Positions 4,926 through 37,663 of a DNA stretch of 64,000 bases are shown here, piece by piece (position 1 is the stretch's first letter; each line of letters starts with the position of its first letter). The notes below the pieces were generated by a model, which saw only the letters and a program-made list of their open reading frames with translations, was not told where the DNA came from and ran no database searches. Made by a program: the position numbers and the translations under genes. The DNA lies in the NCBI GenBank assembly GCA_000004985.1, contig GG738924.1, one strand, 5' to 3'. This DNA comes from Naegleria gruberi. Lineage: Eukaryota.

Positions 4926-4989
4926 AATTTTGCTTTAGGAATTGATTGGAAACTAATAAGGCTCTTGATATTTAATTAAATTTCGTTAA

Positions 4990-5001: not shown

Positions 5002-5007
5002 GGGGTT

Positions 5008-5038
<31 letters not shown>

Positions 5039-6309: not shown

Positions 6310-6315
6310 GGGGTT

Positions 6316-6346
<31 letters not shown>

Positions 6347-6382
6347 TGCAGAAGGTCTAGGGTTCGATTCCCTATGACTCCA
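6310..6382 (+). tRNA. tRNA-Ala(UGC), copy 2
   Basis: Identical 73-nt sequence to 5002-5074. Confidence 0.9.
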
Positions 6383-6514
6383 ATTTTGGTCCCATTAGTT
6401 ATTTTTTATTGAGGCATGCAAGAAGAACATATGGGAAGCGTAATTGGATTGTGGGCTGATTTCACAATCTTAAAAAATCCACAACACAACTGACTCAACA
6501 CTTCACAGGATACA

Positions 6515-7243: not shown

Positions 7244-7295
7244 ACTCTAAGATGGTTAATGCATATATTGATCGATTTTAATATTAAGGCAAGAA

Positions 7296-7301
7296 GGGGT
7301 T

Positions 7302-7332
<31 letters not shown>

Positions 7333-7368
7333 TGCAGAAGGTCTAGGGTTCGATTCCCTATGACTCCA
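7296..7368 (+). tRNA. tRNA-Ala(UGC), copy 3
   Basis: Identical 73-nt sequence to 5002-5074. Confidence 0.9.
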
Positions 7369-7645
7369 ATTTTTTTGTTCCGTGAGTACACTCGAATTGT
7401 ATTCTTAATTAACTCTCTTATTCTGAAATAACATTTCAACAATGGTAATGCTTTCTACGTCAATCCAAGGCATTGAGATTTTGTTAAAAGAGAGACGCGA
7501 ACAGTTGATTTAATGGTAATAATCGATTCAGTGGAGAAAGACATTCCAAACATAACGGAAAAAGTTTACGATTTTGTAGTTGGTAGTTTTAAGGGCAACA
7601 ACGATAAAACAGGAGATAGAGAAAATAAAATACAAATAGAAACAA

Positions 7646-12534: not shown

Positions 12535-12539
12535 ATATT
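12327..12539. repeat. 213-bp near-identical direct repeat, copy A (copy B is at 14035-14247). The two copies flank the scaffold gap.
   Basis: The aligned sequence runs agagtgcaattttgagaatttcatcatcc...ctccactcaaatatt and differs from copy B at only two positions. Confidence 0.8.
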
Positions 12540-13984: not shown

Positions 13985-14034
13985 NNNNNNNNNNNNNNNN
14001 NNNNNNNNNNNNNNNNNNNNNNNNNNNNNNNNNN
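13985..14034. other. Assembly/scaffold gap (50 N)
   Basis: A run of 50 n characters. The track ORFs that translate across it (XXXX) are not real. Confidence 0.99.
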
Positions 14035-15055
14035 AGAGCGCAATTTTGAGAATTTCATCATCCATATAGTTAGCATAATGAACAGAATAGGGATTATGTT
14101 TAACTGCCTCTAATATAACCTCCCTGTCACATTTCAATAGATCTGATGCATATCTAAGGCATGATTGACCAGATACTAGTGGTTTATCGCATCTTACAGC
14201 CAGTAAAACTATTTCTCTATCATTTTTCATTTCTCCACTCAAATATTCCAAGCACATACTATTTGATTTCAAAGCGAGGAAAACAATTTCTCTATCCAAT
14301 CTAAACTCGGATGGAGTTTTTGCTATTATATTTCCATTTCGTTTAACAGCTTCTATCACAATATCCCTGTCAGTTGACCATCTTTTTTCTAAATCTCTCA
14401 ATACCAAACCATCAACCCTGACTGCTTTTAAAATCATTTCCCTATCATTCTTCAGATCATTATTTGCAAAATTTAATGAAAACCCATTGTACTTCACACA
14501 TTCTTCTATTATTAATCTATCACTTCTCACTTTCTCAGTTGCCAACTCTAAGAGAAGTAAAACATTCTTTTCTACCAATCCCTCAAATTTAACAATCTCT
14601 AAAAAGTGCTTTTTATCATCAAATACAGCTCTCATTGATGGATAATATGTCATCAATCTATTTAATATATCTTCTTCTAACAAATGTGCATGACTCTTTA
14701 GGAAATTGGCCACAAATTTCGTGTCATTCATTGTATTTTCCAAAGCCAATACTTGCTTTGAATCCACTCTATCGGTCCACAATAAATATTCCAAAGCAAT
14801 ATCAACATCCAACTTTAACATTGGATCAATCATTTCATAAACCATTTGAGGATTATTCTTCATATTTTCAATGATGAATGATTTATCTTTGGCATATTCT
14901 ATGGGAAAATATTCGTATGATTTTTCCATTCGAACAAACCATAACAGTTTGCCAAATTGTTGGCTTTCAAATTTGAATTTTAAATATTGGAAAGTTGGTT
15001 GAGTGGTGATGGGACGATCCGTAAGAATAATTGTAACTGGTTCTAACTCTGACAT
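14035..15055 (-). CDS. DUF4116-like repeat protein, 5' part. The ATG is at 15055 and the ORF is open down to the gap.
   Basis: The repeats NDREMILKAVRVDGLVLRDL, DRDIVIEAVKRNGNIIAK and DREIVFLALKSNSMCLEYLSGEMKNDREIVLLAVRCD are followed by the 213-bp segment identical to 12327-12539. Confidence 0.5.
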
Positions 15056-22348: not shown

Positions 22349-23134
22349 TTAACACAAGACAATGACAAATTGAAGAGTTGCCAATAGGAGCAAGCAAGCC
22401 ATATTGAACGTACCCACAGCAGAATTCATCTTGAAGACATATTCTTGTCCAATGTAGGCCCATGATCTTCCATTGTCCTTTCTGGTTGCAACTACATCAA
22501 TATGATAAGCGGCACTCTTCTTCAGATTTAATACGAAACTAGTTGATGAGGTACATCCTTGAAGTTCACTATCTGCAAAGACAGCACATGCACTTCCATG
22601 AACATCTCCATCATCATGTTCTTGTTCAGAGTGAGCATAGACACAATAGTCGATATAGGCAGCATTCTCAACAACTGGATTCCAACTCAATTCAATTTGG
22701 TCACCATTCTGTTTAACAGTGATGGAATCAGAGGATGGGAGGATTGGATATGGATTGGTAGAGGTTGAGTAGAGGAGATTATATCTTGCCTTGACATTAC
22801 CTGAGTTTGTAACCTTGAGATAATAGGTGGAGTTTCCTGGGAGAATACCATAAATACCTTTAAGATTGAATGGAGTAACAACATTTGGAATATCGTCCTT
22901 GGATGATCTGCTCTTATATTTAATTTGTGGAAATATGAAAGAGAATAAGCTATTGCCTGTGGTCAGTTCGCTTGCTTTAGAGACTTGGGATGAGTTGGCA
23001 ATGAACCAATCAATTTTTCCTTCACAAGGAAGAACAAAAACCATCAAATTGGAGCTAGTGACTGGATCTGTTTTAAATTTGTAAAGATTGGTCATACCAT
23101 TCGATTGAATTACTGAAGGAATGGAAACACCCAT
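22349..23134 (-). CDS. Putative secreted or GPI-anchored protein (body, 261 aa). A 19-codon signal-peptide ORF lies in frame upstream but is separated by a TAA.
   Basis: The body ends in a hydrophobic tail MACLLLLATLQFVIVLC and contains an FN3-like segment. Upstream at 23210-23153 the sequence ATGGCAATATTGCTTGTCATTATTTGCTTCATTACTACTCTTTCAATGGCTCAACAATAA encodes MAILLVIICFITTLSMAQQ* in the same frame. Confidence 0.45.
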   Translation of the reverse strand: MGVSIPSVIQSNGMTNLYKFKTDPVTSSNLMVFVLPCEGKIDWFIANSSQVSKASELTTGNSLFSFIFPQIKYKSRSSKDDIPNVVTPFNLKGIYGILPGNSTYYLKVTNSGNVKARYNLLYSTSTNPYPILPSSDSITVKQNGDQIELSWNPVVENAAYIDYCVYAHSEQEHDDGDVHGSACAVFADSELQGCTSSTSFVLNLKKSAAYHIDVVATRKDNGRSWAYIGQEYVFKMNSAVGTFNMACLLLLATLQFVIVLC

Positions 23135-23430
23135 TTGATCAGAGAGATCAATTTATTGTTGAGCCATTGAAAGAGTAGTAATGAAGCAAATAATGACAAG
23201 CAATATTGCCATCAAGGTCTTGAACAGAATTTCTCTGTTGTTTTGAGATTTGTAGAGAAGGAATATATTTTCTTGAACGCTCTTTGGAGAATTATTTTTT
23301 AACCATTTAATTGCCTCTCCACTTTTGGAATTTAATTGGATATTGTGAAATGCAGAGATCGTAACATGTTCAATGTATTTGGTACAGGTTCAATTATTAG
23401 TTGATTTCTGTTATTTATTCGAAACATTAA

Positions 23431-24779
23431 GTGAAATAGTTTAATTTATTTTGTTATTAATATTTCTCACGTATTACTAAGAATCTGTTAACAAATTCAG
23501 TTAATTTACAAGGTTTTGATGATTGGCTTTGATGGCTTTTTACATGTCTTTCTCTTGATACAAATCTTCTTCTTGATTGACTTGCAACACTTTTTCTTTC
23601 CACCAACTAATTTGAATTTCTTACAAATCTTCTTTCCCTTTGAACGTTTCAAACACTTCTTATAATACTTCTTCTTGATACATCTTGGTGGAATGACAAT
23701 TGACTTGGCACAATACTTCTTCTTGTTATATTTCACACATTTGGAAATAGTCTTCTTGTGTTTACAGAACTTGATAGTCTTATGTTTGGCACAGAAGAAT
23801 TTCTTCTTAATGAGACAACATTTCTTAATGGATTTTCTCTCCTTACAATATTTAACCTTCTTATACTTGGCACATTTCTTTGCCCATGAAACAATCTTGC
23901 ACTTTTTAACATATCTACATTTGGCAATCTTCTTATTATAGGAATCAACAGTATACTTATCACAGACTTTCTTCTTTTCACACTTCTTGATTGGAACCTT
24001 CTTGAATTTCTTACAGATCTTCTTGCAACCCTTCTTGACACACTTGTTGACAATCTTGTGTTTGGCACAGAATTTCTTGAAACCCTTCTTAATACAAATC
24101 TTCTTAGTTCCATAAGAATCACAAACTTTCCAATACTTCTTCTTGGCACATCCAACAGTCTTGTATGCATGCAAGACACACTTCTTTGTTGCCTTACTGT
24201 ACTTGTCACATTTGGAATATTTCTTATGTTTGAGACATTTACCAGCACCGACAATTGCATATTGATCACAGACCTTCTTTTGACCGACGAGTTTGTGTTT
24301 CAAACACTTCTTAATCCACTTGTGCTTTAAGCATTTTCTCTTACAAATTCTTGGTTTGTGATACTTGTCAACTACGACAACTGGAGGTTTGGTTTGATAG
24401 CTGTCACTTGCTTGAACTGAGAGGATTGCAAGTAAAAGTAGAATTGCAATTGAAAAGATTAGATTTGTTTTCATTTTTTTGTTGGATAGTAAAGTTCAAA
24501 CACATGGTGCTAATTTAAACCATTTCGAATAGTTTTTCATTTGGAACAAACTCAAAAAGTTAGATGTAAGGTTCCAAATTTGGATGGAAATCTGATTTCC
24601 CTAATGAAACCTTCACTGATTCAATCTACTAATTTACTTTTCAAATATCAACTCATATTTCAAATTTAAATAATGTTATATGATTCGTACATTACAATTA
24701 ATTCAAGTTCTTCTTTCACTTTCAAGGTTTAATGCCTTCTTTTGTGTTTCTATTGAATGAGTAATTCATTAAAAATCTT
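23431..24779. repeat. Segmental duplication copy 1 (~1.35 kb). Its copy is at 33841-35170 in the same orientation.
   Basis: The aligned block starts at gtgaaatagtttaatttattttgttattaatatttctcacgt, runs through the K/C-rich gene and its 5' flank, and ends at ttcaaggtttaatg...tgaatgagtaattcattaaaaatcttt. Only a few substitutions and indels are present. Confidence 0.85.
23506..24474 (-). CDS. Secreted, extremely Lys/Cys-rich basic protein (322 aa), copy 1
   Basis: It starts with a signal peptide MKTNLIFSIAILLLLAILSVQA. The mature part is about 30% Lys and 15% Cys, with reiterated CxKHK, KKC and CAKxK units. The long antisense ORFs in the track are codon-periodicity artefacts. Confidence 0.6.
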   Translation of the reverse strand: MKTNLIFSIAILLLLAILSVQASDSYQTKPPVVVVDKYHKPRICKRKCLKHKWIKKCLKHKLVGQKKVCDQYAIVGAGKCLKHKKYSKCDKYSKATKKCVLHAYKTVGCAKKKYWKVCDSYGTKKICIKKGFKKFCAKHKIVNKCVKKGCKKICKKFKKVPIKKCEKKKVCDKYTVDSYNKKIAKCRYVKKCKIVSWAKKCAKYKKVKYCKERKSIKKCCLIKKKFFCAKHKTIKFCKHKKTISKCVKYNKKKYCAKSIVIPPRCIKKKYYKKCLKRSKGKKICKKFKLVGGKKKCCKSIKKKICIKRKTCKKPSKPIIKTL

Positions 24780-25363
24780 TGGACTCATTCTATGACGTCA
24801 AATATTAATTGACAAGCATTACTTGTTTCTGTGAAAATCACTCGAATATTCACAATACTTCCAATAAGACCAAATCACATGCTTCTTCAGTTGTTGCTAT
24901 TGAAAGTCATGTTTCGTCTGCAAAGAATTGCGACAAGTGCTCGAATGATGATGAAGAGAAAGTTTTGGCAACTCATCGCTGCAAGCAATGTAATTCGTTT
25001 GATTTGTTTTCAAATTGTGAAAGACAATTATTTACAAAAAAAGGATGATGTGCGTAGACAGAAAAAATTGTAATTTGTAATATTGAAAGCAATTTTCACG
25101 TTTCAACCAGTCAGTTATGAGAATTCCATTGAAAAGCTTAAAAAAAAATGACAACCAACAAACCTGTTAGATTTTTCAGTGGCCAAGTCATTGTTACCAA
25201 GAGAACCAATCAATACTTTGAAGTATTTGATTCAGTCTGTGATCAGAAAGCAGACACAGAAACTATGCAAACAGATCAATACAATTATTACATATTTGTT
25301 GCAGTGTTGGCAGATGGAGTGTACAAGTAAAGAATAGAGTAAAGGTGAATGATGTAATCCTAG

Positions 25364-26947
25364 ATGAAATTCATGGTATTAAAGTATATAGAGCATTCGG
25401 AACGAATTATTCCAAACGAACCTTTGCGACTTATTCAACGTGATGAACAATTTGAACACATTGCACAATTCAAAACACTTATAAAAGCAAAGGATGATCC
25501 AAACGATACCAGCTACTTTATGACAACCAAATATTATGAAGGAGGTACTTTAGGTAATACCAAATATGGATTTTCATTTAACTTTGTAATTTCAGTTGGA
25601 AAACAATTAGTTCAAGGTTTGAAAGATATTCACATGAAAATGAGTCTTATCCACAGAGATATAAAGTTAGATAACATTGCTCTTGATCAAGTGGTAGTTG
25701 AAAATAATGAAATTCAAAGCGCAATCATCAAGGTTATTGATTTTGAAAGTGCTGTTTCTATTCAAAATCAGGGAGCTCTTGAAGAAGAAATGTATCATGC
25801 CACTAAAAGTTATCGATGCCCAGATGATATACTACTTTCCACCAAGAGCGAGATTTATGCTCTTGGTTTGATTTTATTTAGAATGTTGTATGGTACCTAT
25901 GGTGAAAGAGACGAATTGCACGTTTCTCAAAATTTCAAAGGTCAACAAGATTACACCGAACAAATGAAAAAAAGCCTTGATGTGAATACAAGATTACACA
26001 GAACAATTATGGATGATTGTAGAATGAAAAGATTATTGAAAAGGATGTTAAGTTACAATCCCCACCAAAGACCAGAATTAGACGAAATAGATTTTGAACT
26101 TAGCATTATTAATACAGCTGTTGATCCACCAATACCACTACCGTGTCTTAGAATCGATGAATCTTATAGACAGAAAAGATGTTTTGAACCTAAATCGGTT
26201 TATTTGGAAGATATTGCTGACATGTTTAATGTTGATGTTCTTTCCATGACACCTGAAAATATTCTCAGCTTTTGTGACAACAATGAATGTGCTGGATTGA
26301 GTTCTGATTACTTTATTCAAGATACATGTGTTATGATTATTTGTAAGATTATGAATGTTGAACCACATCCAGACAAAAATCAAACACGTAAGCTTTGTAA
26401 ACTTGAAAAGGAACATTTAAACAAGTTGGGCTATGCCATGAAAGAATTCGAGTTGAATTTAGGACAAAACCTATCAAGAGTCAACAAACTTTTTGAAAAA
26501 CAAAGAAAAAACAAAAATCCAAAAGAAATATTAGATATGGTAAATGAGAATCTTGAAGTTAATCCAAATTTGAAGAAAACAGCCAGTGATATACTGCAAC
26601 TTGTAGATATGATAAGACCACAGCTTAATCTACTATCGACACCATCCTCAGACACCGAAAACATCGATGATGGCGATTCTCGTTTTCTGAAGTTGTTTCC
26701 AATTTCAAATGGTTCATCAAGTCAAAAACCAACCAAAATTGTAAAAGTGCAATGCTTGAACGGTGGTGATGAAAAAACTATTGATGTAACCAATTTTGAT
26801 GTTATGGGTACTCAATGTCAACAGAGATTTCAAAATGAAAAACTGATTGCAATCTTGAAACAGAACAAATTTGTTGATTTATTGGAAGAATTGCAAGATG
26901 GAGAAACATACGTTGTTATTACAAGAGACTATTTTTTAAACAAGTAA
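25364..26947 (+). CDS. Protein-kinase-like domain protein (527 aa). The N-lobe motifs were not found in this ORF, so it is either a pseudokinase or has upstream exons.
   Basis: The catalytic loop reads HRDIKLDNIALD. DFE replaces DFG (DFESAVS). Subdomain IX reads SEIYALGLILFRMLYG and subdomain XI reads HQRPEL. No GxGxxG loop or VAIK lysine is present. Upstream ORFs at 24809-25048 (CxxC/HxC zinc-finger-like) and 25148-25330 are in the same orientation. Confidence 0.6.
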   Translation: MKFMVLKYIEHSERIIPNEPLRLIQRDEQFEHIAQFKTLIKAKDDPNDTSYFMTTKYYEGGTLGNTKYGFSFNFVISVGKQLVQGLKDIHMKMSLIHRDIKLDNIALDQVVVENNEIQSAIIKVIDFESAVSIQNQGALEEEMYHATKSYRCPDDILLSTKSEIYALGLILFRMLYGTYGERDELHVSQNFKGQQDYTEQMKKSLDVNTRLHRTIMDDCRMKRLLKRMLSYNPHQRPELDEIDFELSIINTAVDPPIPLPCLRIDESYRQKRCFEPKSVYLEDIADMFNVDVLSMTPENILSFCDNNECAGLSSDYFIQDTCVMIICKIMNVEPHPDKNQTRKLCKLEKEHLNKLGYAMKEFELNLGQNLSRVNKLFEKQRKNKNPKEILDMVNENLEVNPNLKKTASDILQLVDMIRPQLNLLSTPSSDTENIDDGDSRFLKLFPISNGSSSQKPTKIVKVQCLNGGDEKTIDVTNFDVMGTQCQQRFQNEKLIAILKQNKFVDLLEELQDGETYVVITRDYFLNK

Positions 26948-28649
26948 CGTTTCCTTAATAAAACATTCAAAAAAACGTTTTAAATGTTGTCTAGAATGTT
27001 GTTGAAACCCTTAATTTTCAGAGCCGAAAGGTTACTCTACAATAGCAACTCCACCTAAGAGAGTCTTATTAGAAACGTTACCTTCCCAGTCTAGTCTTCA
27101 TCTCTCCTTTGAGGATCAGCTAATCCCACTCGCAACTGGTGAACAATTTAAGAAAGCACTCCCTTATCATCATATTGCTTGTTAGACAGTTAAAAGCCCT
27201 TGGGTTTTATAAAAAGAGATTCAGTGCAGAGATTGCCAACTGAATACACGACCATTTCTAGTATTGGAATTATCCTGTATGGAATGAAGAGAAATCATAG
27301 GGATAATACATTGTATTAGAGTTATCACAGTGGACCCATCATTGTTGATCTAAATCTGCCTCTTAATTATACGTATTATCTTCAAGAAAATGTTAAAGAA
27401 GATATAAATGGCAATGATTGCATTAGTTGCTCAACACAGAGAAACTTTGCAGAAACCCACAAGTTGATTGATTCAATTGATTCATTTAGTCCAATGAATT
27501 GGCCAGGAGTTAATCCAAGTATGAGAGATACAGAATCCCTTCAAATTATCATGAAAGATATTGAGAAACATAGAATAACTAGTTCTCATGTTTATCATTG
27601 GATGGAAGGAGTTGAATTGAAATATTCAGATGGAGGAAAGATTTGGTTTCATTTTACAATTGAAAATGCATATGTAATGGTTGATTATCAATCTTCTAGT
27701 TTATTTTAGAGAGAGTGGATTGTTATACTAATAGAATAATCAAATTAATAGTAAGAGAAAGATTGAAAAAGTAAAAGTAGGAAGACAGGGAATCAAACTC
27801 TGATCTTTGGAACCACAATCCCACTAAACCATCTCCCTCATTGCATTCTTACATTTAGAATAATTTAAGTATATTAAGGGTTTGGTCAGGCAAATTAGTT
27901 GATATGCAAATGGGAACAATCTTCTTATAAATTACATCTTTCATAATAATCTTGAGTGTGATTTTGCAAATAGATTTGATTAGAAATAGTTTATTCCTTT
28001 TCTTTGTATGATACAATTTTCAATGCTAATAGTTTCGCTCGCAGTTAGCAAATTTGAGGTCTATATTGATCAAGATGATATGCCTATTATTGAATATGTG
28101 TTGTTACTATTACACATAACAATCCGAGCACTTCTTTACCATCTAGCATCCCAAACATCACTATATTCATGTCTATGTGGCAATGATTCAATTCCACTCA
28201 AAGTACAATCCTTTGTAGTCTTTGATAAAACGGAACGAGTCATTGTTCTTCCGGCTCCATGATATTCGGCTTTCCAATACTTGTTAGAGTGAAGTGTTTT
28301 TGTTATTTTTAGATTTTAAAAATAAATTTGAACACTTTGAGTTCTTCTGGTGTTCATTGTAATTATACACATGAATTTTGTTGATAATAAAAGTTGTAGT
28401 CTACATGTGATGAGCAATGATAAATTGTGTTTCTTTTCATGAAGATTAGAATACACAATTAACTTCTTATTATTAGTATGAGCCCATCTTCACATATTTT
28501 TTGAAACAAAAAGCTGGGCTCTGGCGATAATAACATCATCAAGCTGTGCTTTATTTGATGATGAAGTATTTATTAGACTGCTTATTTAAAGCGTATACGA
28601 GCAATCATTGTACAATCTACACAATCATCATTCATCACAACATCAAAAA

Positions 28650-31022
28650 ATGTCTCAACACGATATTAACAACATGTCCATTAGAAATGTTGCAATTTGT
28701 GGTGAACCATCAAGTGGAAAATCCTCTCTTGTCCACTTGTTAATCAACAACAATCATCAAACAAATTCAACACAAATTCTTTTTGAAACTTTTCAATCAC
28801 AACTTTATTCAACAAGCCTAAAATTAAATTCTCATCATGATGTTGAAGTAAATTCTATCCTCAACTTGGTGGATTGTATTGGTAGATTAGAATCACTCTC
28901 CCAAGTCAAGGCAGATCTCAGATTGACTGATGGTTGTATTATGGTAGTTGATGCAAGTTTACCAACATTTGGAAAATATTCGGAATTGGTTTTGAGACAA
29001 ATTTCACAGGAGAACATTCCTCTTGTTGTACTGTTTAACAAATTAGATGAACCTTTGATGGATTGCAATGTTGATTTGGAGGAAATTAACAAATCAATAC
29101 AGAGGATTGTTGATTCAGTTAATTTGGTGATGAGCACATTCAATACTGAGAGTAAATTAAGTTTGGAAAGTATTGTATTTGGATCTACAAAGCAGGGGTG
29201 GGCTTTTACGTTGAAACATTTTGCCATGTTTTATTCGAAACAATTTGGAATGAACCAAGATGAATTATTAGAGAAATTGTGGGGAGATTGTTATTACGAT
29301 GCAGAAAATGGCAAATGGACAAATCAATCTAATGACAACATTTTCCAAAGGAGTTTCTGTCAATTTATTTTAAAGCCTATTAGGAGAGTATTAGCAGCGT
29401 GTGAAAAATCAGAGTTTAATGTGTTAGAAGAGGTGTTAAATCCTTTTGTGAAAAGTCTTTCAAAAACAGAATACACGGATCTCAGCAAGCAAGAATTAAT
29501 CAACTCAACCATGCAAAAATGGCTATCAGCCAACAACTCAATACATGAGTTGATTTTTAATCAATTACCTTCCCCAGAAAAGGCTCCGTATAACAGGGCT
29601 AAAAGTATCTATTCTGGCTCAATTACAGACAAATTCGGAACAGCCATCAAGAATTGTGATCCATGTGGTCCCTTAGTTGTACATGTTTCTTCTAACAAAA
29701 TTATTAATGGAAAGATTTATGCAATTTCAAGAATTTTTTCTGGATCTTTGAAATCTGACACTATTGTAAGAGTATTTAATTCAAAGCAGGTGTTTGAGGA
29801 AAAATCTCTTCGAGGAATTGTAAAGATCAATGGCACGAGTATTGAACCTATTGAAGAGGCAAGTTGTCAATTCAATCCTATTATTGGATTGATTGGAATT
29901 GAATCATGTTTAACAAACAAAGGATCCACAATAACTGAGAGTACAGAATTGGAGGCTAAACCATTTATTTCTGATTCAAAAAGTAATTTACCAATGATTA
30001 ATGTCTATGTAGAGCCTAAGAAACAAGCCTATCTTCCCAAACTTATAAGAGGACTAGAATTAATTTACAAATGCGATTCTTCACTATCTTTCACTTTGGA
30101 TGAATATACTGGAGAGAAGATACTTACAGTTTTTGATGAAAAACATTTGGATTCGGTGCTACACCAATTTAAACAACTTCATCCAAGTATTGAACTCGAG
30201 GTTTCTGGACCCATTGTAAAATATCAAGAAACAGTGACAAGTTCATCTGCAAATATAACACTTGTAAAAACACCAAACAAACACAATAGGCTATGGCTCA
30301 CTACTGAACCTTTAAAAGAGGATGTAATTAGCTATTTTGAATCAGGAAAATTACCTAGCGAGCCTAAACAGAGAGGTAAAATATTGAATGAAAATTTTGG
30401 CTGGGATTTGGTAGATGCAAAAAAGATTTGGTCACTTTGCGAAAATAGTCTAAACGTATTTGTTGACAAGACACAACAAGTTTGTTATTTGAATGAAATC
30501 AAGGATGCAGTAATTCTTGGTTTTCATATTGCAACAAGAGAAGGGCCACTATGTAATGAATTAATGAGAGGCGTACGTTTTAATCTTAAAGATGTAGCCA
30601 TGTACAGTGATGCCATTCATAGAGGCACTGGACAAATAGCACCAACTGTGAAAAGAGGTTGCTATGCTAGTGTATTGGATGCAGAGCCAAGTTTATTAGA
30701 GCCAATTTCTCTAATGGAATTCAAATGTAAAAAATCGGAATTGAGTGCTGTTTATTCAATACTCAATTCAAGAAGAGGAGTTGTGATAGAAGAGCAACAC
30801 ACTTCATCTGTTTTTGGAAAGGCTTTTTTGCCAGTTTCTGAATCGTTTGGGGTTTTGCAATACTTGGATCAGTATAACGTTTCGTCTCAATTTATTTTTG
30901 ATCACTGGCAGCCAATACCTGCTAACTCATCCCAATTTCATGACATTGTGTATAGAACTCGCCTCAGAAAAGGTCTACCAGAAAAGTTACCTTGCCATTC
31001 TGAACTAGTAGACAAACTTTGA
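28650..31022 (+). CDS. Divergent EF-2/EF-G-family GTPase paralog (EFL1/Snu114-like architecture) with degenerate G motifs
   Basis: 791 aa from the first ATG (the track start was a TTG). G1 reads AICGEPSSGKSS, G3 reads DCIGRLES and G4 reads NKLD. The C-terminal EF-2 domains IV/V are conserved (VLDAEPSLLEPISLMEFKCKKSELSAVYSILNSRRGVVIEEQ...FGVLQYLDQ...FDHWQPIP). Confidence 0.7.
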   Translation: MSQHDINNMSIRNVAICGEPSSGKSSLVHLLINNNHQTNSTQILFETFQSQLYSTSLKLNSHHDVEVNSILNLVDCIGRLESLSQVKADLRLTDGCIMVVDASLPTFGKYSELVLRQISQENIPLVVLFNKLDEPLMDCNVDLEEINKSIQRIVDSVNLVMSTFNTESKLSLESIVFGSTKQGWAFTLKHFAMFYSKQFGMNQDELLEKLWGDCYYDAENGKWTNQSNDNIFQRSFCQFILKPIRRVLAACEKSEFNVLEEVLNPFVKSLSKTEYTDLSKQELINSTMQKWLSANNSIHELIFNQLPSPEKAPYNRAKSIYSGSITDKFGTAIKNCDPCGPLVVHVSSNKIINGKIYAISRIFSGSLKSDTIVRVFNSKQVFEEKSLRGIVKINGTSIEPIEEASCQFNPIIGLIGIESCLTNKGSTITESTELEAKPFISDSKSNLPMINVYVEPKKQAYLPKLIRGLELIYKCDSSLSFTLDEYTGEKILTVFDEKHLDSVLHQFKQLHPSIELEVSGPIVKYQETVTSSSANITLVKTPNKHNRLWLTTEPLKEDVISYFESGKLPSEPKQRGKILNENFGWDLVDAKKIWSLCENSLNVFVDKTQQVCYLNEIKDAVILGFHIATREGPLCNELMRGVRFNLKDVAMYSDAIHRGTGQIAPTVKRGCYASVLDAEPSLLEPISLMEFKCKKSELSAVYSILNSRRGVVIEEQHTSSVFGKAFLPVSESFGVLQYLDQYNVSSQFIFDHWQPIPANSSQFHDIVYRTRLRKGLPEKLPCHSELVDKL

Positions 31023-31617
31023 TGAAACAAATTAATGAAAATTTAAAAAAAATGGAAAATATTTTACTGGGTAAAGAATTATGTCATCATGAAGAGAAGG
31101 AATTAAATAGATTTCAGTTCTATTCTTCTTGATTTGAAGAGAGTAACTAAACTCAAGCGAAGATTGAAGCGTAGATCTAATTAGTATTTCAATGTTTCCT
31201 ATTACAACAATATTGTCATCATACATAGAAATGTGGATAATATTCGATGGATTAAAGTTATGACAGTGTTGATATTACAAGAGCAAAATATAGGTACTTT
31301 AGAACTCTTCTAATTCCGTTTAAAATTATTGTAAAGACCAATAATCAATCAACAAGACCAATAATTGTAATTGAGGTTTTAGCAGAAACGAGAAAATTCA
31401 ATCATCATTCGTTTATTGTTGAAAAAATTAGGAAATGATTGAAAATTTATTATCAATAACTGATATCAAAATATTGGATCAAGCAAGAACTCCCAGAATA
31501 TTTATCCAACAACAAGAGGAATAAATATTTCAAAAATTTAAACATCTAATAAATTTGATTAAAAAAAATTCATAATTTAAGGTTTTGATCATTAATCTTG
31601 TCCATCAACAAAATTAA

Positions 31618-32739
31618 ATGGAAAATCTTGGAGCAGAGCTTTGTTATTTGGCACAATTACCACCGGAAGAACAATTCACAATTCGACTTGTAATAATTTG
31701 GGAATTAGACAATAATAAGTTTCTTGTTTGTAGAGCAAAGCCAGACAATGCCTATCCATTTCTCAATGAGGATATGGAGTATTCTAATGCGGATATTGTT
31801 TATTTCAGCCCAATTGAAGTGTATACACATACACCTGTAATAACAGGAGATGTAGTGGAAGTTGGAAGAATTTTAATTATTGATAATGCATTGCATCTTG
31901 ACTCAGTGACGTTTATTGAGAAAGCAAACACTATGCCAGGTAGGATAGAGTATATGACTGAAACTATGAATGATATTTGGATTCAAAAGGAGTATGTGAG
32001 TAATGGGAAAAGTTCAAAAGTGGAGGAAGAGAGTGAAATAGATGCAAGTTTACTTGATCAATTACCATTTGATATGAAATTTGAGATTATCTCTTTCATT
32101 CCAACTTATTCGAAACAAGAACGAATTAAACTAGTCGAGAGAAATGTAAGAATAGCCTGTGAACTCTTGAAAATATGTGAGGATGAGTTTAATGATAAAT
32201 ATTGTGATAAAACGTGTACTGCAATGCGTATTGAAAAGAGATTAAATCCAGATCGATTATATGAAATAGATAATGATTTTATCAGATTTGTGAAAATGAG
32301 ATTGATTAATAAGGAGTTTGCCAAAATTATGAAGGAAAACATTATGAAATTGGATTTATTATATATTTATCGAGATGATATAGGAAGGAGACGATTGGTA
32401 AGGACTAGTATTGAACTTGCAAGAAGAGATTATTTCAAAGACCCTTCACTTAATCCCATCTATTTTCTTTATTATTATTCACAGATAGAAAAACATGCCT
32501 ATCCCTACTATGGTTATAATGATCTTAATATTGCATGTGCGCCATCTTTAGATAAACTGAGCAGGTTTGATTTTGCAGTATCATTCTATGAAAAGTTTGG
32601 ATTGTCATCTAATGAAATATATTTGATGGAAAAAATAGATTTTTGTGTTAACAGGAAGGAACTAAAATTATATAGACCTACGTTCATCTTGGAAGAGTTT
32701 AGAGCACTTTTGGGAGAAATTTTTCTTGCTCTAAATTAG
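31618..32739 (+). CDS. Hypothetical protein (373 aa)
   Basis: Long ORF from a true ATG with coding-like composition. No recognised domain. Confidence 0.45.
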   Translation: MENLGAELCYLAQLPPEEQFTIRLVIIWELDNNKFLVCRAKPDNAYPFLNEDMEYSNADIVYFSPIEVYTHTPVITGDVVEVGRILIIDNALHLDSVTFIEKANTMPGRIEYMTETMNDIWIQKEYVSNGKSSKVEEESEIDASLLDQLPFDMKFEIISFIPTYSKQERIKLVERNVRIACELLKICEDEFNDKYCDKTCTAMRIEKRLNPDRLYEIDNDFIRFVKMRLINKEFAKIMKENIMKLDLLYIYRDDIGRRRLVRTSIELARRDYFKDPSLNPIYFLYYYSQIEKHAYPYYGYNDLNIACAPSLDKLSRFDFAVSFYEKFGLSSNEIYLMEKIDFCVNRKELKLYRPTFILEEFRALLGEIFLALN

Positions 32740-32924
32740 AAATCTATTGCCTCTTTTTTGATACTAGAGTATCACAGTTTATTGTTGATGAATTAAGCAC
32801 TCAAAGCTATATAATTACATTACACAAAAGAGATTTTTGCAAGAGAATACAAAGATTTATACAGACGGATGAAAATCCACCTATACAAATTAATCTATTT
32901 GAGCTAGAAGAATATCATCCATTA

Positions 32925-33650
32925 ATGGATCCTTATCCCATACAAAATAAGCTATTTTTCTGCATGGATTTATCGCAAACCAAACGAATGCTGGACTCAA
33001 TTTTAAATAATAATCATAGCTTAATTTTGGACACTACATTCCATCCTTCTCACCTAAACGAATACTTTTCAAAACTTTGTCAACACCAGTCAGGAGGAAA
33101 ATTTAATGCTCATCCTTGTGAAAGGGAGACCACTACTGACTATGAATTCATTGATGTAATTCGAAACTCTAACTATTCTATTGAACACATGATGCACGAA
33201 ACTTTGAGTCTGATTACTTTGGATCCAAAGTTACGGAGCTATTTTTATAGACCTTACATTACATTTTCAGGACCTTCTTTATTATTTGCCAATCATTATT
33301 CAGCTGGTTGTGAAATTGCTTTCCAATACATGGAAGAGCCTGAACTTTCTTATCGAGACCAAAATGGGTTAACTGTACTGCACTACATTGCAGAGAATTT
33401 TTTGGAGATTAAGCAACAGAAAATTTTAACAGAAAAATTAGTCAAATATCCCCATTTATTGAATATTTGTGATAATAGGGGAAGAGTTCCAACTGATATT
33501 TTTATGCCACCATTTGCAACAAATTTTTTACGTAACTATATTGAAGAAAATGAAATTACAATTGAACGAAGGTACATACCATTTAACCCCTTCGAGTTAC
33601 CTTCAAAGAAACAAAAACGAATTGATTCATATTTTAAGAAGAAACAATAA
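32925..33650 (+). CDS. Hypothetical protein (241 aa)
   Basis: ORF from an ATG. The segment GLTVLHYIAENFLEIKQQKILTEKLVKYPHLLNICDNRGRVPTDIF is weakly ankyrin-like. Confidence 0.4.
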   Translation: MDPYPIQNKLFFCMDLSQTKRMLDSILNNNHSLILDTTFHPSHLNEYFSKLCQHQSGGKFNAHPCERETTTDYEFIDVIRNSNYSIEHMMHETLSLITLDPKLRSYFYRPYITFSGPSLLFANHYSAGCEIAFQYMEEPELSYRDQNGLTVLHYIAENFLEIKQQKILTEKLVKYPHLLNICDNRGRVPTDIFMPPFATNFLRNYIEENEITIERRYIPFNPFELPSKKQKRIDSYFKKKQ

Positions 33651-33840
33651 AAGCATAGCTTATAATTCGTTTGGCATTATCCAGTTTGTAATCTCATTAT
33701 TGTAAACCTTTACACAAAATGCAATCAACCACTGTTGAGGAAATATCCAGCATGATTAATTTCTATTCAAAAGTTGGAAATTCAGCTTTCCATAATCACC
33801 TACAATGCAGAGATCGAAACATTGGCCTTCCACTGAGATT

Positions 33841-35170
33841 GTGAAATAGTTTAATTTATTTTGTTATTAATATTTCTCACGTGTTACTGAGAGTGTGTAA
33901 GTAAATGCCATTAATTTACAAGGATGGTTTAACGATTGGCTTTGATGACTTTTTACATGTCTTTCTCTTGATACAAATCTTCTTCTTGATTGACTTGCAA
34001 CACTTCTTCTTTCCACCAACTAATTTGAATTTCTTACAAATCTTCTTTCCCTTTGAACGTTTCAAACACTTCTTATAATACTTCTTCTTGATACATCTTG
34101 GTGGAATGATAATTGACTTGGCACAATACTTCTTCTTGTTATATTTCACACATTTGGAAATAGTCTTCTTGTGCTTACAGAACTTGATGGTCTTATGTTT
34201 GGCACAGAAGAATTTCTTCTTAATGAGACAACATTTCTTAATGGATTTTCTCTCCTTACAATATTTAACCTTCTTATACTTGGCACATTTCTTTGCCCAT
34301 GAAACAATCTTGCACTTTTTAACATATCTACATTTGGCAACCTTCTTATTATAGGAATCAACAGTGTACTTATCACAGACTTTCTTCTTTTCACACTTCT
34401 TGATTGGAACCTTCTTGAATTTCTTACAGACCTTCTTATATCCCTTCTTGACGCACTTGTTGACAATCTTGTACTTGGCACAGAATTTCTTGAAACCCTT
34501 CTTGATACAAATCTTCTTAGTTCCATAAGAATCACAAACCTTCCAATACTTCTTCTTGGCACATCCAACAGTCTTGTATGCATGTAAGACACACTTCTTT
34601 GTTGCCTTACTGTACTTGTCACATTTGGAATATTTCTTATGTTTGAGACATTTTCCAGCACCGACAATTGCATATTGATCACAGACCTTCTTTTGACCGA
34701 CGAGTTTGTGTTTTAAACACTTCTTAATCCACTTGTGCTTTAAACATTTTCTCTTACAAATTCTTGGTTTGTGATACTTGTCAACAACTGGAGGTTTGGT
34801 TTGATAGCTGTCACTTGCTTGAACTGAGAGGACTGCAAGCAAGAGTAGAATTGCAATTGAAAAGATTAGATTTGTTTTCATTTTTTTTTGTTGGATAGTA
34901 AAGTTCAAACACATGGTGCTAATTTAAACCATTTCGAATAGTTTTTCATTTGGAACAAACTCAAAAAGTTAGATGTAAGGTTCCAAATTTGGATGGAAAT
35001 CTGATTTCCCCTAATGAAACCTTCACTGATTCAATCTACTTAATATCAACTCATATTTCAAATTTAAATAATGTTATATGATTCGTACATTACAATTAAT
35101 TCAAGTTCTTCTTTCACATTCAAGGTTTAATGAGACCTTCTTTTGTGTTTCTATTGAATGAGTAATTCAT
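33841..35170. repeat. Segmental duplication copy 2. It overlaps the 3' end of gene 35120-37663.
   Basis: See copy 1. In this copy the right end of the repeat coincides with the last ~17 codons (ERFLMNYSFNRNTKEGLIKP*) of the adjacent large gene. Confidence 0.85.
33916..34881 (-). CDS. Secreted Lys/Cys-rich basic protein, copy 2 (start at MKTNLIF)
   Basis: It differs from copy 1 by a 2-aa indel (PPVVVVDK in copy 1, PPVVDK here), a few substitutions and the C-terminal residues. The 5' poly-T differs (9 T here, 7 T in copy 1), which explains the spurious upstream ATG in the track. Confidence 0.6.
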   Translation of the reverse strand: MKTNLIFSIAILLLLAVLSVQASDSYQTKPPVVDKYHKPRICKRKCLKHKWIKKCLKHKLVGQKKVCDQYAIVGAGKCLKHKKYSKCDKYSKATKKCVLHAYKTVGCAKKKYWKVCDSYGTKKICIKKGFKKFCAKYKIVNKCVKKGYKKVCKKFKKVPIKKCEKKKVCDKYTVDSYNKKVAKCRYVKKCKIVSWAKKCAKYKKVKYCKERKSIKKCCLIKKKFFCAKHKTIKFCKHKKTISKCVKYNKKKYCAKSIIIPPRCIKKKYYKKCLKRSKGKKICKKFKLVGGKKKCCKSIKKKICIKRKTCKKSSKPIVKPSL

Positions 35171-37663
35171 TAAAAATCTTTCAGTTCTAAGTTTCCTGCA
35201 AGATGGACAAAAAACATCACGGTCATCGGTATCAGTAGATTCTTTACCATTCCATCGTTTGCTGCTAATTATTTCGGCCAATGTTGGAGAATAGAGATAG
35301 GTTAAGCACTTGTCACATTTGGCTATACAGTACTTTCTTGCCAAATGCCTGTCAGAGTATTTCTCCTTTACAAAATCATGGTTTTCTGCTAAAATCTGAA
35401 ACAGTTCTGAAGGTCTATCAATAAAGATGTACTCATCTGTTGTCATAATATTTTCAACTCTTTCTGCATGTTGAATCTCATCAGATTTTAGATTTTTCAT
35501 AAAATCTTCCACATTTTCCGAGTGTTTGAATGGTGTGGTAAGAATAAAATCGAATATAAAGCAGTGATGATTCCTTGATAGGTGTCTACGAAGTTTCCAC
35601 AATGCAGCGCTCAATCCAATACTCTTACATAGGTCAATAAAATAATAATCCACATTTCTCAATACTAAAGGATACAAGTATTCAGAAGCATCCAAATCTA
35701 TAGAACTACTAGGGTCAGTAGTATGCGTTGATTGAACATGCAAGTTAGATGAAGGATGAAACCTATAATATCCAGATTCATAATTCGAGAGATAATTTTT
35801 AAGAGTATGCAATCGGTGGCTTTCAACAATAAAATCACAATGCATGGCATGCAGCAAAGGATGGTCATATTTCAGTACGAATGTGTGAAAACCTCTAGTT
35901 CCATATTTCCATGCCCGCCTATTATTGATTTCTGAGTTTCCGGTTTCTTTAGAAAGAAAATTTATCTTATACTTGAGGGATCTTAAACATTCTAAAACAG
36001 TAAATACTTGTGATCCATCATAGGCAAGTTTGCAGCAATCCAAGTCAAAAAATAAAAGTAACTCCTCAATAGAATCATATTTCAATAAAACTATTTGAAT
36101 ATTTTGGTTGCTTTCCACTCTGTAACCATCCTTTAGACTCATTCTAGGACGTTTTTGACAAATATTAATTGTTGTCTTGGAGCTCATTATGTTATAATCA
36201 AATTTGGTAGATTTCTTCTCAAACATTAGCATTACGTGTTTAATTGCTTGATTAATCACATCATTTGACTCGCCATTATTAATGATGAAAATATCAATAT
36301 CTTGACATCCACAACCAGTTAATGTGTGAAGGAGTGATCCTCCTGAAACAACAAAGCGTTCCTTTGTTTTGGTTGTTCTATTGTACTGAAAGATGCAATC
36401 ATAAATAAGGACTCTTGCTAGTTCATTAAGGAAATGGTTCTTGAATCTTTCTTCGAAATTAGAAAATGTCATCTTGTGAGGATGTTTGAAAAATCTCACC
36501 AATCTCTCCAAGTAAATAGAATAAAGGTCTGGATTTGGTTTGTCTACATATGTGTGATAATCAATTTGTGAATGGCTACCTAATTCACTTTGTTGATTGT
36601 AAAGATCTGGAGTAATTACACGATCCAACTTCCATATTTTGTCCAAATCTGTATAATACTGCCTGGTCATTCCTTTCACACATCTTCTCCTTACAAATTG
36701 ATCAAACGTGAGATAGTATCCATCTTTCTGTGGAAAGAGTCCATAAGGAAAGACAGGAAGACTTTCATTTGACAACTTTTGAATTTCATCATCTGGCAAA
36801 CTATTTAAAGAGGCCATTTTCAAATCAGCAGTATCATTAATTTCCTTAATTTCTGGATCATCCGCTTGATAAACGGTTGAAAACTTTTTCTGATCATGAA
36901 AATAACTCAAAGGCCACGATACTGAACTTCTCGTTCGGAAATATTGATCATAGGTCAACATGACTTTCTCTCCACCACTAGCCAAACTATCCGAAAACAA
37001 ATCAAACGCTCTACTCAACTCTCCAATCTTCCTCTTTCCATTCAAAATATCCAAACGAAGCCTCTCAACACTCTGACCATAAATCTCATCAAACAATTGA
37101 TAAACATCTCGGCATGTACATATAAAATTGAAAAGGCTCTTCGTATCCATATAAAACATCCAATCTAACATTATTTCATTTGGAATTTGCTTGATTAAAT
37201 TATGATCAGGTATTACTTCATAATGAATTTCTCCCCAATCAATATTAATAATATTATTATCATCACCATCATCCTCATCACAATTATTCATTAAATAATT
37301 AGTATCGGAATCGATATATCTTTCTTCATCCTCTTCATGTTTACGTATCAGACCTCCATTGGAAAATATCTTTCCATCTTCAATAATCATTGCCACCTCA
37401 TCAGTACTCGATTTAATTGTATAAATATTGTTGTTGTTGTTGGGTGAGAAAATGTTTGGATTAAATTCATTTTGGATTTTTTCTTGGCGGGAAATTCCAG
37501 AAGAGGAAGCAATCGTAGTGGATTTTTTTTCATGATCCTGAATTTCCTCCCAATCAATAATGAGATCATCATTGTCATCATCACTGATAACGATTACCTG
37601 ATTGTCAGGGGTCTTTTTGGTTGGGCGGGAAGAGGGTGAATCTGAATCAAACTTTCGTTTCAT
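35120..37663 (-). CDS. Large hypothetical protein (847 aa) with an F-box-like motif and a nucleotidyltransferase-fold signature
   Basis: The F-box-like segment reads IPNEIMLDWMFYMDTKSLFNFICTCRDVYQLFDE. The NTase-fold motif reads VVSGGSLLHTLTGCGCQDIDIFII, which fits hG[GS]-x(9-13)-DhDh. Confidence 0.6.
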   Translation of the reverse strand: MKRKFDSDSPSSRPTKKTPDNQVIVISDDDNDDLIIDWEEIQDHEKKSTTIASSSGISRQEKIQNEFNPNIFSPNNNNNIYTIKSSTDEVAMIIEDGKIFSNGGLIRKHEEDEERYIDSDTNYLMNNCDEDDGDDNNIINIDWGEIHYEVIPDHNLIKQIPNEIMLDWMFYMDTKSLFNFICTCRDVYQLFDEIYGQSVERLRLDILNGKRKIGELSRAFDLFSDSLASGGEKVMLTYDQYFRTRSSVSWPLSYFHDQKKFSTVYQADDPEIKEINDTADLKMASLNSLPDDEIQKLSNESLPVFPYGLFPQKDGYYLTFDQFVRRRCVKGMTRQYYTDLDKIWKLDRVITPDLYNQQSELGSHSQIDYHTYVDKPNPDLYSIYLERLVRFFKHPHKMTFSNFEERFKNHFLNELARVLIYDCIFQYNRTTKTKERFVVSGGSLLHTLTGCGCQDIDIFIINNGESNDVINQAIKHVMLMFEKKSTKFDYNIMSSKTTINICQKRPRMSLKDGYRVESNQNIQIVLLKYDSIEELLLFFDLDCCKLAYDGSQVFTVLECLRSLKYKINFLSKETGNSEINNRRAWKYGTRGFHTFVLKYDHPLLHAMHCDFIVESHRLHTLKNYLSNYESGYYRFHPSSNLHVQSTHTTDPSSSIDLDASEYLYPLVLRNVDYYFIDLCKSIGLSAALWKLRRHLSRNHHCFIFDFILTTPFKHSENVEDFMKNLKSDEIQHAERVENIMTTDEYIFIDRPSELFQILAENHDFVKEKYSDRHLARKYCIAKCDKCLTYLYSPTLAEIISSKRWNGKESTDTDDRDVFCPSCRKLRTERFLMNYSFNRNTKEGLIKP

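What the first reader, a model, noticed from the sequence alone, without database searches (positions are those of the whole stretch)
23431..35170. Near-identical ~1.35 kb segmental duplication carrying a Lys/Cys-rich secreted protein gene; one copy includes a 3' fragment of the neighbouring gene
Blocks 23431-24779 and 33841-35170 are in direct orientation, lie 10.4 kb apart and are more than 95% identical across the coding region, the 5' flank and the 3' flank. Eleven unrelated genes sit between them, including a kinase and an EF-2 paralog.

The right end of the repeat in copy 2 coincides with the last ~17 codons and stop of the large gene 35120-37663 (…ERFLMNYSFNRNTKEGLIKP*). Copy 1 carries the same segment (with a small deletion) as an orphan fragment with no gene attached. 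This indicates that the 33.8-35.2 kb locus is the source and 23.4-24.8 kb is the derived insertion. It is a recent event: the differences are a 6-nt coding indel, poly-T length 7 vs 9, and a few substitutions.

I see no target-site duplication, terminal inverted repeat or transposase, so the mechanism is unclear.
Basis: seen in the sequence. Interest (0 to 1): 0.6.

Follow-up and report, generated by a model that had tools for sequence, protein, structure and literature searches.

The report
Duplicated secreted-protein gene in Naegleria
A 1.36-kb piece of the Naegleria gruberi genome, carrying a complete gene for a secreted, extremely lysine-rich, cysteine-periodic protein plus the tail of its neighbour, has been copied 10.4 kb away; both copies are kept by selection, and this is an ordinary gene duplication, probably with some later gene conversion.

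Summary
The repeat is real. Copy 1 is 23419/23431-24780 and copy 2 is 33814/33841-35181. They are direct, with 38 substitutions in 1332 ungapped columns (97.1%, or 95.2% counting gaps). There are only two copies in the window, both in gap-free sequence.

The window matches the Naegleria gruberi reference: three window ORFs equal its proteins exactly, all on one 196,593-bp scaffold.

Each copy holds an intact, intronless minus-strand gene of 322/321 aa. The product has a signal-peptide-like N-terminus, 35% Lys, 11% Cys at a nine-residue period, and a net charge of about +104. Relatives were found only in Naegleria and in unnamed environmental sequences. Neither copy is in the reference protein set.

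dN/dS is 0.10, so both copies are under purifying selection.

Copy 2 is the donor. Its right end is the last 20 codons of an intact 847-aa gene whose tail aligns with paralogues. Copy 1 keeps that tail as an orphan with a 3-nt deletion. There is no TSD, TIR or transposase.

The event is not uniformly recent: synonymous divergence is 10%, the 5' flank 0.7% and the 3' end 13%. That mosaic points to ectopic gene conversion or a two-step origin.

About four or five genes lie between the copies, not eleven. This is ordinary biology and of low interest.

The parts
23419..24780 (.). Copy 1 of the duplicated unit (recipient / derived locus)
   Evidence: The firm core is 23431-24780. TCGAAACATT at 23419-23428 also matches copy 2 across a 15-nt indel.
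33814..35181 (.). Copy 2 of the duplicated unit (donor / ancestral locus)
   Evidence: It spans from the intergenic DNA after ORF 32925-33650 to 62 nt inside gene 35120-37663.
23506..24474 (-). K/C-rich gene, copy 1 (322 aa plus stop). It has a signal-peptide-like N-terminus and 33 Cys, including a derived extra Cys150.
   Evidence: ORF. dN/dS 0.10. Composition and Cys periodicity. Family hits.
33916..34881 (-). K/C-rich gene, copy 2 (321 aa plus stop, counted from the ATG shared with copy 1). The mechanical ORF runs on to 34914 only because the poly-T is 9 rather than 7.
24722..24780 (-). Orphan copy of the last 19 codons plus stop of the 847-aa gene. It has a 3-nt in-frame deletion and no gene attached.
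   Evidence: tblastn (24784-24731, 83% over 18 aa). Alignment. No upstream ORF.
35120..37663 (-). Intact 847-aa neighbour gene whose 3' end (35120-35181) lies inside copy 2. It is a weak F-box protein with a GGS...DIDIF nucleotidyltransferase-like motif.
   Evidence: Paralogues are 43-52% identical and their C-terminal region aligns with this tail.
24437..24780 (.). Near-identical tract (first 38 nt of the CDS plus the whole 5' flank): 2 substitutions and 4 indels in 344 nt. The counterpart in copy 2 is 34844-35181.
   Evidence: Fisher p = 1.2e-6 against synonymous sites. There is no alignable conservation of this flank in the relative L001.
23431..23535 (.). Hyper-diverged 3' end: 14 substitutions in 105 nt, of which 10 fall in the 28 nt at 23473-23500 just after the stop codon. 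It is flanked on the left by 42 identical nt that contain an AATAAA motif.
   Evidence: Change point at 23536, permutation p = 0.0005.

Best explanation
This is a genuine dispersed DNA-level gene duplication on one Naegleria gruberi scaffold. A 1.36-kb unit at 33.8-35.2 kb was copied into intergenic DNA 10.4 kb away, between an fn3-like gene and a kinase gene. The unit comprises a complete intronless gene for a secreted, hyper-cationic, Cys-periodic protein, its short 3' flank, its entire 238-nt upstream intergenic region and the last 20 codons of the upstream neighbour.

The junctions show no target-site duplication, no inverted ends and no long homology. The unit also includes promoter-side DNA. 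The copying was therefore not transposition or retroposition. I infer that it was an ectopic double-strand-break repair or template-switch event sealed by non-homologous joining.

Both copies have since been kept as working genes (shown: dN/dS of about 0.1, in-frame indels only, and balanced numbers of derived changes).

The unit is a mosaic of ages: synonymous sites 10%, 5' flank 0.7%, 3' end 13%. From this I infer that the paralogues have exchanged sequence after the first duplication. The most economical version is a later repair or gene-conversion event. It would start in the CDS homology and copy outward from copy 2 through the upstream flank into the neighbour's tail. That would also have created the present right-hand junction at 24780|24781.

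The protein's function is inferred only. It is an extracellular structural, adhesive or polyanion-binding protein of a family seen only in Naegleria and unnamed environmental sequences.
For: - The repeat is real, with two copies in gap-free sequence.
- Organism: three window ORFs are exact matches to N. gruberi proteins EFC36858, EFC36907 and EFC36860, all on one 196,593-bp scaffold.
- Coding and selected: 17-18 synonymous against 9 non-synonymous differences, dN/dS 0.10-0.11, binomial p = 4e-8 against neutrality. With L001 as outgroup, derived changes are 7 in copy 1 and 11 in copy 2.
- Donor direction: the tail is part of an intact 847-aa ORF in copy 2. It aligns with paralogues P0003-P0005, whose E-x-x-I spacing matches copy 2 and not the deleted copy 1. 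No other trace of that gene lies near copy 1. Excising copy 1 restores no ORF.
- Not a transposon: no TSD longer than 4 nt, ends 10/40 complementary (chance level), and no transposase or RT in or beside the unit.
- Mosaic: synonymous 18/175 against 5' flank 2/288, Fisher p = 1.2e-6. The Poisson probability of 2 or fewer differences is 4.6e-5 even if only one lineage were neutral. The 3' change point has permutation p = 0.0005.
- The 5' flank is not deeply constrained. In L001 the CDS is 80% identical, but the 289-nt upstream flank is only 52% identical in a gapped alignment and lacks the neighbour's tail.
- Family: the C-terminal 137 aa of P0002 (a third N. gruberi copy on a 39.8-kb scaffold), P0011 (N. 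gruberi D2VF04, 50%), and N. fowleri and N. lovaniensis homologues at 35%. Only 18 hits below 1e-3 were found among 1.84 billion representatives, and the Cys columns are conserved.
Against: - No reads or second assembly could be consulted, so the physical existence of both copies rests on one Sanger assembly.
- The gene-conversion or two-step part is inferred from only two sequences. The third N. gruberi copy is known only as 137 aa of protein, so no phylogenetic-incongruence test was possible.
- L001 is at dS of about 1.0 and may be a paralogue rather than an orthologue. Its unalignable flank is therefore only weak evidence against constraint.
- The 5' flank against all CDS sites is only marginally different (Fisher p = 0.042).
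- The 5' flank has 4 indels, so it is not pristine.
- No signal-peptide predictor was available. The AlphaFold model is poor (pLDDT 44), so function is speculative.
Confidence: 0.65

Rival explanations
1. A single one-step duplication with no later exchange. The uneven divergence would reflect selection only: a strongly constrained promoter and intergenic region, and a fast-evolving 3' UTR patch.
For: The intergenic region is short (238 nt) and must hold both the 3' end signals of the 847-aa gene and the promoter of the K/C gene. The 42 identical nt at the far 3' end contain an AATAAA motif. The 5' flank against all CDS sites is only marginally different (p = 0.042).
Against: In copy 1 the neighbour's tail and its 3' end signals have no gene to serve, yet they show 0 substitutions in 59 nt. 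The flank as a whole has 2/288 differences against 10% at synonymous sites (p = 1.2e-6; p = 4.6e-5 even if only copy 1 were free to change). The flank is not recognisably conserved in L001, although the CDS is 80% identical.
Confidence: 0.17
2. Remnant of a larger duplication that originally included a full paralogue of the 847-aa gene next to copy 1. That paralogue was later deleted, leaving only its last 59 nt.
For: The 847-aa gene belongs to a multi-copy N. gruberi family. A deletion would also leave a junction without TSD.
Against: tblastn finds no other fragment of that gene within the window near copy 1. No other flanking genes are paralogous between the two loci. This model needs two events where one suffices.
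Confidence: 0.08
3. The unit is a non-autonomous mobile cassette that spreads around the genome and picks up neighbouring gene fragments, in the manner of a Pack-MULE or Helitron.
For: At least three near-identical gene copies exist on at least two scaffolds. The unit carries a fragment of a neighbouring gene.
Against: There is no TIR (10/40 matches), no TSD and no transposase. The ends do not fit Helitron termini: the unit ends ...ATCTTT, not CTRR, and does not sit between A and T (sequence). The captured fragment is simply contiguous with the donor locus.
Confidence: 0.05
4. Assembly artefact: one locus, or two alleles, was placed twice in the scaffold.
For: It is a Sanger-era assembly of a probably polyploid strain (my own recollection). 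Elsewhere in the window a 213-nt, 99% identical block starts at the first base after the only gap, so assembly redundancy does occur here.
Against: The copies differ at 38 substitutions and 8 indels, with dS of 0.10. Both lie in uninterrupted sequence with unique flanks on both sides and 9 kb of unique genes between them. The differences show the signature of purifying selection rather than error.
Confidence: 0.03

Closest known systems
Small dispersed segmental (DNA-mediated) gene duplication followed by non-allelic gene conversion (concerted evolution of young paralogues)
   Same: Both are direct repeats on one chromosome that include regulatory flanks. Both paralogues are intact and under purifying selection. 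Divergence is patchy along the unit, and a truncated piece of the neighbouring gene marks the derived copy.
   Different: Conversion is inferred from only two sequences. The near-identical tract runs right up to the end of homology, which suggests that the last event created the junction rather than acting inside older homology.
Gene-fragment-capturing transposons (Pack-MULEs, Helitrons)
   Same: A short unit carries a host gene plus a fragment of another gene to a new place.
   Different: TIR, TSD, Helitron termini and any transposase were looked for and not found. The 'captured' fragment is merely adjacent DNA at the donor.
Uncharacterised Naegleria protein family: N. gruberi D2VF04 (NAEGRDRAFT_67458), N. 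fowleri FDP41_004030, N. lovaniensis C9374_009239
   Same: These share a signal-peptide-like N-terminus and conserved Cys columns with a spacing of about nine residues. They also share DSY/DKY/DTY motifs and a C-terminal ...GGKK.C... block. E-values range from 2.5e-57 to 4e-17.
   Different: The window copies are the most lysine-rich members (35% K, net charge about +104). They are 35-50% identical to the named members. No member has a known function, Pfam domain or solved relative.

Membership tests
Segmental gene duplication (paralogous pair) | Two homologous blocks in one genome, each embedded in unique contiguous sequence | tested here: met
   There is no gap within 9 kb of either copy, and the flanks are unique.
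Segmental gene duplication (paralogous pair) | Both copies retain an intact ORF evolving under purifying selection | tested here: met
   dN/dS 0.10-0.11, p = 4e-8 against neutrality, indels all in frame.
Segmental gene duplication (paralogous pair) | Independent physical confirmation (reads, second assembly) that both copies exist | not testable with these tools
   Eukaryotic genome DNA was not retrievable. The exact proteins are absent from the collections.
Non-allelic gene conversion between paralogues | Significant heterogeneity of divergence along the repeat that constraint does not explain | tested here: met
   Synonymous 10.3% against 5' flank 0.7% (p = 1.2e-6). Change point p = 0.0005. 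The flank is not conserved in L001.
Non-allelic gene conversion between paralogues | Phylogenetic incongruence between segments when a third paralogue or outgroup is added | not testable with these tools
   The third N. gruberi copy is available only as 137 aa of protein (P0002). The L001 flanks are unalignable at dS of about 1.
DNA transposon / MITE / Pack-MULE | Terminal inverted repeats and target-site duplication | tested here: not met
   Ends match 10-11 of 40 positions as reverse complements. No direct repeat longer than 4 nt lies at the flanks.
DNA transposon / MITE / Pack-MULE | Transposase, or multiple copies with identical termini | tested here: not met
   Only the K/C ORF lies inside the unit. 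There is no Pfam transposase among the neighbours. Only two copies are in the window. A genome-wide count was not possible.
Retrocopy (processed duplicate) | The copy is limited to the transcript, with a poly(A) tail and loss of promoter or upstream DNA | tested here: not met
   The copy includes 306 nt upstream of the ATG and part of the upstream gene. There is no poly(A) at the 3' end.
Assembly artefact | Identical or near-identical copies abutting gaps or contig ends | tested here: not met
   There are 38 substitutions and 8 indels, and no N runs nearby. By contrast, the 213-nt block at 14035 does abut the gap.
Naegleria Cys-periodic secreted protein family (D2VF04-like) | Significant full-length sequence similarity with a conserved Cys framework | tested here: met
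   P0011 has E = 2.5e-57 over residues 1-310. N. fowleri and N. lovaniensis homologues have E = 4e-20 and 4e-17. Cys columns align.
Naegleria Cys-periodic secreted protein family (D2VF04-like) | Secretion (cleavable signal peptide) | tested here: inconclusive
   The N-terminus MKTNLIFSIAILLLLAILSVQA|SD has a hydrophobic core and small residues at -3 and -1. AlphaFold models it as a helix at residues 3-22. No signal-peptide predictor was available.

The most novel reading that the evidence does not exclude
The K/C gene unit may be one member of a repeat-like gene family, known only from Naegleria, that is missing from the N. gruberi reference protein set. My guess for its absence is repeat masking before gene prediction. 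The family would be actively expanding and homogenising through an ectopic copy-and-join repair process that drags neighbouring gene fragments along. Its products, C-x8-C proteins with a net charge of about +100, would be a previously undescribed class of extracellular polycationic proteins (cyst-wall, adhesive or antimicrobial).
Probability: 0.12. Interest if true: 0.5.

Novelty: new member of a known kind. Interest (0 to 1): 0.25.

Why it matters
The practical value is mostly for annotation. Two intact, selected genes and the 847-aa neighbour are absent from the N. gruberi reference protein set. A third copy is buried in a chimeric gene model.

The pair is a clean small example of how a compact protist genome makes and then partly homogenises dispersed duplicates without transposons. 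The orphan gene tail gives the direction of copying.

The encoded protein family is unusual: secreted, about 35% lysine, and a strict nine-residue cysteine period. It was seen only in Naegleria and unnamed environmental sequences, and is entirely uncharacterised. It may be worth a look by people working on the Naegleria cell surface or cyst wall.

None of this changes a general principle.

Tried and rejected
- Retrieving the genomic DNA of the N. gruberi scaffold and of the third copy with the look-up of encoding contigs failed. The look-ups returned nothing for the 847-aa protein, P0002, the kinase and P0001. No genome-wide copy count or read validation was therefore possible.
- A viral-contig scan with the 847-aa protein found nothing. 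My early idea of a giant virus was dropped once exact N. gruberi matches appeared.
- Pfam gave no domain for the K/C protein or the 847-aa protein.
- A PDB profile search gave no hit.
- Rfam on 23000-25400 gave only a sub-threshold chance hit. There is thus no evidence that the ultra-similar 5' flank hides a known RNA gene.
- AlphaFold with a 13-sequence alignment gave pLDDT 44 and pTM 0.18. This is too poor for a fold search, so none was run.
- Excising copy 1 in silico restores no ORF across the junction, so the insertion did not visibly disrupt a gene.
- An all-against-all comparison of window ORFs found no other paralogous pairs flanking the two copies. It is therefore not the remnant of a larger block duplication at the protein level.
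- TSD, TIR and Helitron-end checks were negative.
- L002, a metagenomic homologue of the 847-aa gene, has only 97 nt downstream and so says nothing about synteny.
- Four literature searches found nothing on this family or on such duplications in Naegleria.
Full report

Yes. The repeat finder reports a chain of direct-repeat segments with a 10.40-10.41 kb offset. MAFFT aligns the two regions continuously. blastn gives one hit, 23431-24780 against 33841-35181, at 95.2% over 1359 columns, and finds no further copy in the 64-kb window. A global alignment has 38 substitutions in 1332 ungapped columns (97.1%) plus 27 gap columns in 8 indels.

On the left, beyond a 15-nt indel, a further 10 identical bases (TCGAAACATT, 23419-23428 / 33814-33823) suggest that the unit starts there.

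The window's only gap is at 13985-14034, so both copies and everything between them lie in uninterrupted sequence.

**2. Where is this?**

Three window ORFs are letter-for-letter identical to Naegleria gruberi proteins:
- EFC36858 / D2W212, the kinase at 25364-26947.
- EFC36907 / D2W210, the fn3-like gene at 22349-23134.
- EFC36860 / D2W214, at 31618-32739.

All three are on one 196,593-bp scaffold. The window therefore matches the reference N. gruberi assembly.

Neither K/C protein nor the 847-aa neighbour is in the protein collections. The best hit for the 847-aa protein is a 52% paralogue. These three genes are therefore missing from the reference protein set.

**3. What is duplicated?**

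Each copy contains one intact intronless ORF on the minus strand: 23506-24474 (322 aa) and 33916-34881 (321 aa). The mechanical ORF of copy 2 extends to 34914 only because its poly-T is two bases longer.

The protein has these features:
- A hydrophobic N-terminus with a plausible cleavage site (…SVQA|SD).
- A 300-aa mature part that is 35% Lys and 11% Cys, with pI about 10.2 and net charge about +104.
- Cysteines most often nine residues apart, in about 30 units.

It has no Pfam domain and no relative in the PDB. AlphaFold gives only a poor model, pLDDT 44.

An exhaustive HMMER search of 1.84 billion representatives finds just 18 hits below 1e-3. The named ones are all Naegleria:
- N. gruberi D2VF04, 50% identity, E = 2.5e-57.
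- N. fowleri FDP41_004030.
- N. lovaniensis C9374_009239.
- A chimeric N. gruberi model, P0002, whose last 137 aa are about 92% identical to the window copies. Its SAM/PB1 N-terminal part is not in this window. It represents a third close copy on a 39.8-kb scaffold.

The Cys columns are conserved across the family, including less basic members. The similarity is therefore not merely compositional.

At the sites that can be polarised with L001, copies 1 and 2 share derived residues (SIKK, TISK) against P0002 and L001. They are therefore each other's closest relatives.

**4. Are both copies functional?**

The CDSs differ by 17-18 synonymous and 9 non-synonymous changes: dS 0.10-0.11, dN 0.012, dN/dS about 0.10. 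The binomial p is 4e-8 against the neutral expectation. The two coding indels, of 6 and 3 nt, are in frame.

The outgroup is L001, a Logan contig that is 80% identical in the CDS, with dS of about 1.0. With it, 7 changes are derived in copy 1 and 11 in copy 2. Neither copy is decaying.

Copy 1 carries the whole 238-nt intergenic region that lies upstream of copy 2, so it presumably has the promoter (inference).

**5. Direction of copying.**

In copy 2 the right-hand 62 nt are the last 20 codons and stop of an intact 847-aa ORF (35120-37663). That C-terminal stretch aligns with the corresponding region of paralogues P0003-P0005, so it is native to that gene.

Copy 1 has the same stretch with one codon-sized deletion and nothing upstream of it. 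The paralogues' E-x-x-I spacing matches copy 2, so the deletion is derived in copy 1.

No other fragment of that gene and no other paralogous neighbours lie beside copy 1.

**6. Mechanism.**

The ends show no inverted repeat (10-11 of 40 positions, which is chance level). The flanks show no direct repeat longer than 4 nt and no shared microhomology. There is no transposase or reverse transcriptase in or next to the unit. The copy includes upstream non-transcribed DNA and lacks a poly(A) tail, so it is not a retrocopy. The termini do not fit Helitron ends (sequence).

That leaves a DNA-level ectopic copying event, either double-strand-break repair or a replication template switch, sealed by non-homologous joining. 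This step is inferred, not shown.

**7. The unit is a mosaic.**

Divergence runs as follows:

| Segment | Differences |
|---|---|
| 23431-23472 | 0 in 42 nt |
| 23473-23520 | 14 in 48 nt |
| Rest of the CDS | about 2.7% overall (synonymous sites 10.3%) |
| 24437-24780 | 2 substitutions plus 4 indels in 344 nt |

- The contrast between synonymous sites (18/175) and the 5' flank (2/288) has Fisher p = 1.2e-6.
- Even if only copy 1 were free to change, seeing 2 or fewer differences has p = 4.6e-5.
- A change-point scan puts the strongest break at 23536, with 13.3% to the left and 2.0% to the right, permutation p = 0.0005.
- The 5' flank is not recognisably conserved in L001: 52% identity in a gapped alignment, and no neighbour tail there.
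- No known RNA family lies in the 5' flank.

Strong constraint is thus a poor explanation, particularly for the orphan gene tail, which has no function in copy 1.

I therefore favour later sequence exchange between the paralogues. The near-identity runs to the very last base of homology. The simplest version is therefore a later repair event that invaded within the CDS, copied outward from copy 2 and was end-joined at 24780|24781. Plain gene conversion inside an older, larger duplication is also possible. With two DNA sequences only, this cannot be settled.

**8. Assembly artefact?**

It is unlikely. The copies differ at 38 substitutions and 8 indels in a pattern shaped by selection. They have unique flanks and lie in gap-free sequence.

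The window does contain something that looks like an assembly problem: a 213-nt, 99% identical block beginning at the first base after the gap. The contrast is instructive. Reads would still be needed for proof.

**9. Corrections to the finding.**

- Between the copies there are four clear genes: the kinase, an EF-G/EF-2-like GTPase, and ORFs of 373 aa and 241 aa. There may be one or two small ORFs in addition, but not eleven.
- 'Recent' applies at most to the 5' part of the unit.

**10. Verdict.**

This is a real, ordinary dispersed gene duplication, probably followed by partial homogenisation. It lies in N. gruberi and involves genes missing from the reference protein set, from an uncharacterised family seen only in Naegleria and unnamed environmental sequences. 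It is a new member of a known kind of event.

Interest is low (0.25). The most unusual element is the protein itself.

Noticed in passing
window 4834-7373: There are three tRNA-Ala(TGC) genes at 5002-5074, 6310-6382 and 7296-7368. Each sits in a 93-nt unit that is 98-99% identical, including about 15 nt upstream and 5 nt downstream. ARAGORN also makes an odd 'tRNA-???' call at 4834-4926.
   Followed up: no
window 12327-12539 and 13985-14247: The only gap (50 N, 13985-14034) is followed from its very first base by a 213-nt block that is 99% identical to 12327-12539. This is probably contig-end redundancy or a misjoin in the assembly.
   Followed up: partly
window 25148-25363: The annotated kinase (EFC36858 = ORF 25364-26947) begins at position 56 of the Pfam kinase profile. 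An upstream ORF with an ATG (25148-25327) followed by a GT...AG stretch (25328-25363) looks like a missed first exon and intron.
   Followed up: partly
window 24809-25048 (+): An ORF without any ATG lies immediately right of the copy-1 junction and carries a CxxC...HxCxxC (B-box-like) cysteine/histidine pattern. It could be an unannotated exon or a gene relic.
   Followed up: no
window 35120-37663 (-): The 847-aa ORF is absent from the N. gruberi reference protein set. It has a weak F-box match (E = 0.07) and a GGSLLHTLTGCGCQDIDIF motif that resembles a pol-beta-type nucleotidyltransferase. Homologues carry a precomputed PF26128 ('Gad2') label, which my local Pfam copy did not reproduce.
   Followed up: partly
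window 2021-2584 and 2710-3249 (-): Two adjacent ORFs are 45% identical over 97 aa. They are either tandem paralogues or repeated exons of one gene.
   Followed up: no
L001 632-637 (Logan SRR32051688 contig): The K/C-family homologue on this contig has an in-frame TGA where the window copies have GGA (Gly), which splits it into two called genes. It could be a pseudogene or a sequencing error.
   Followed up: no
window 24025-24027 (codon 150 of copy 1): Copy 1 has a derived extra cysteine, Cys150. The same position is Tyr in copy 2 and Trp, His or Glu in relatives. This gives copy 1 an odd count of 33 Cys, against 32 in copy 2.
   Followed up: partly
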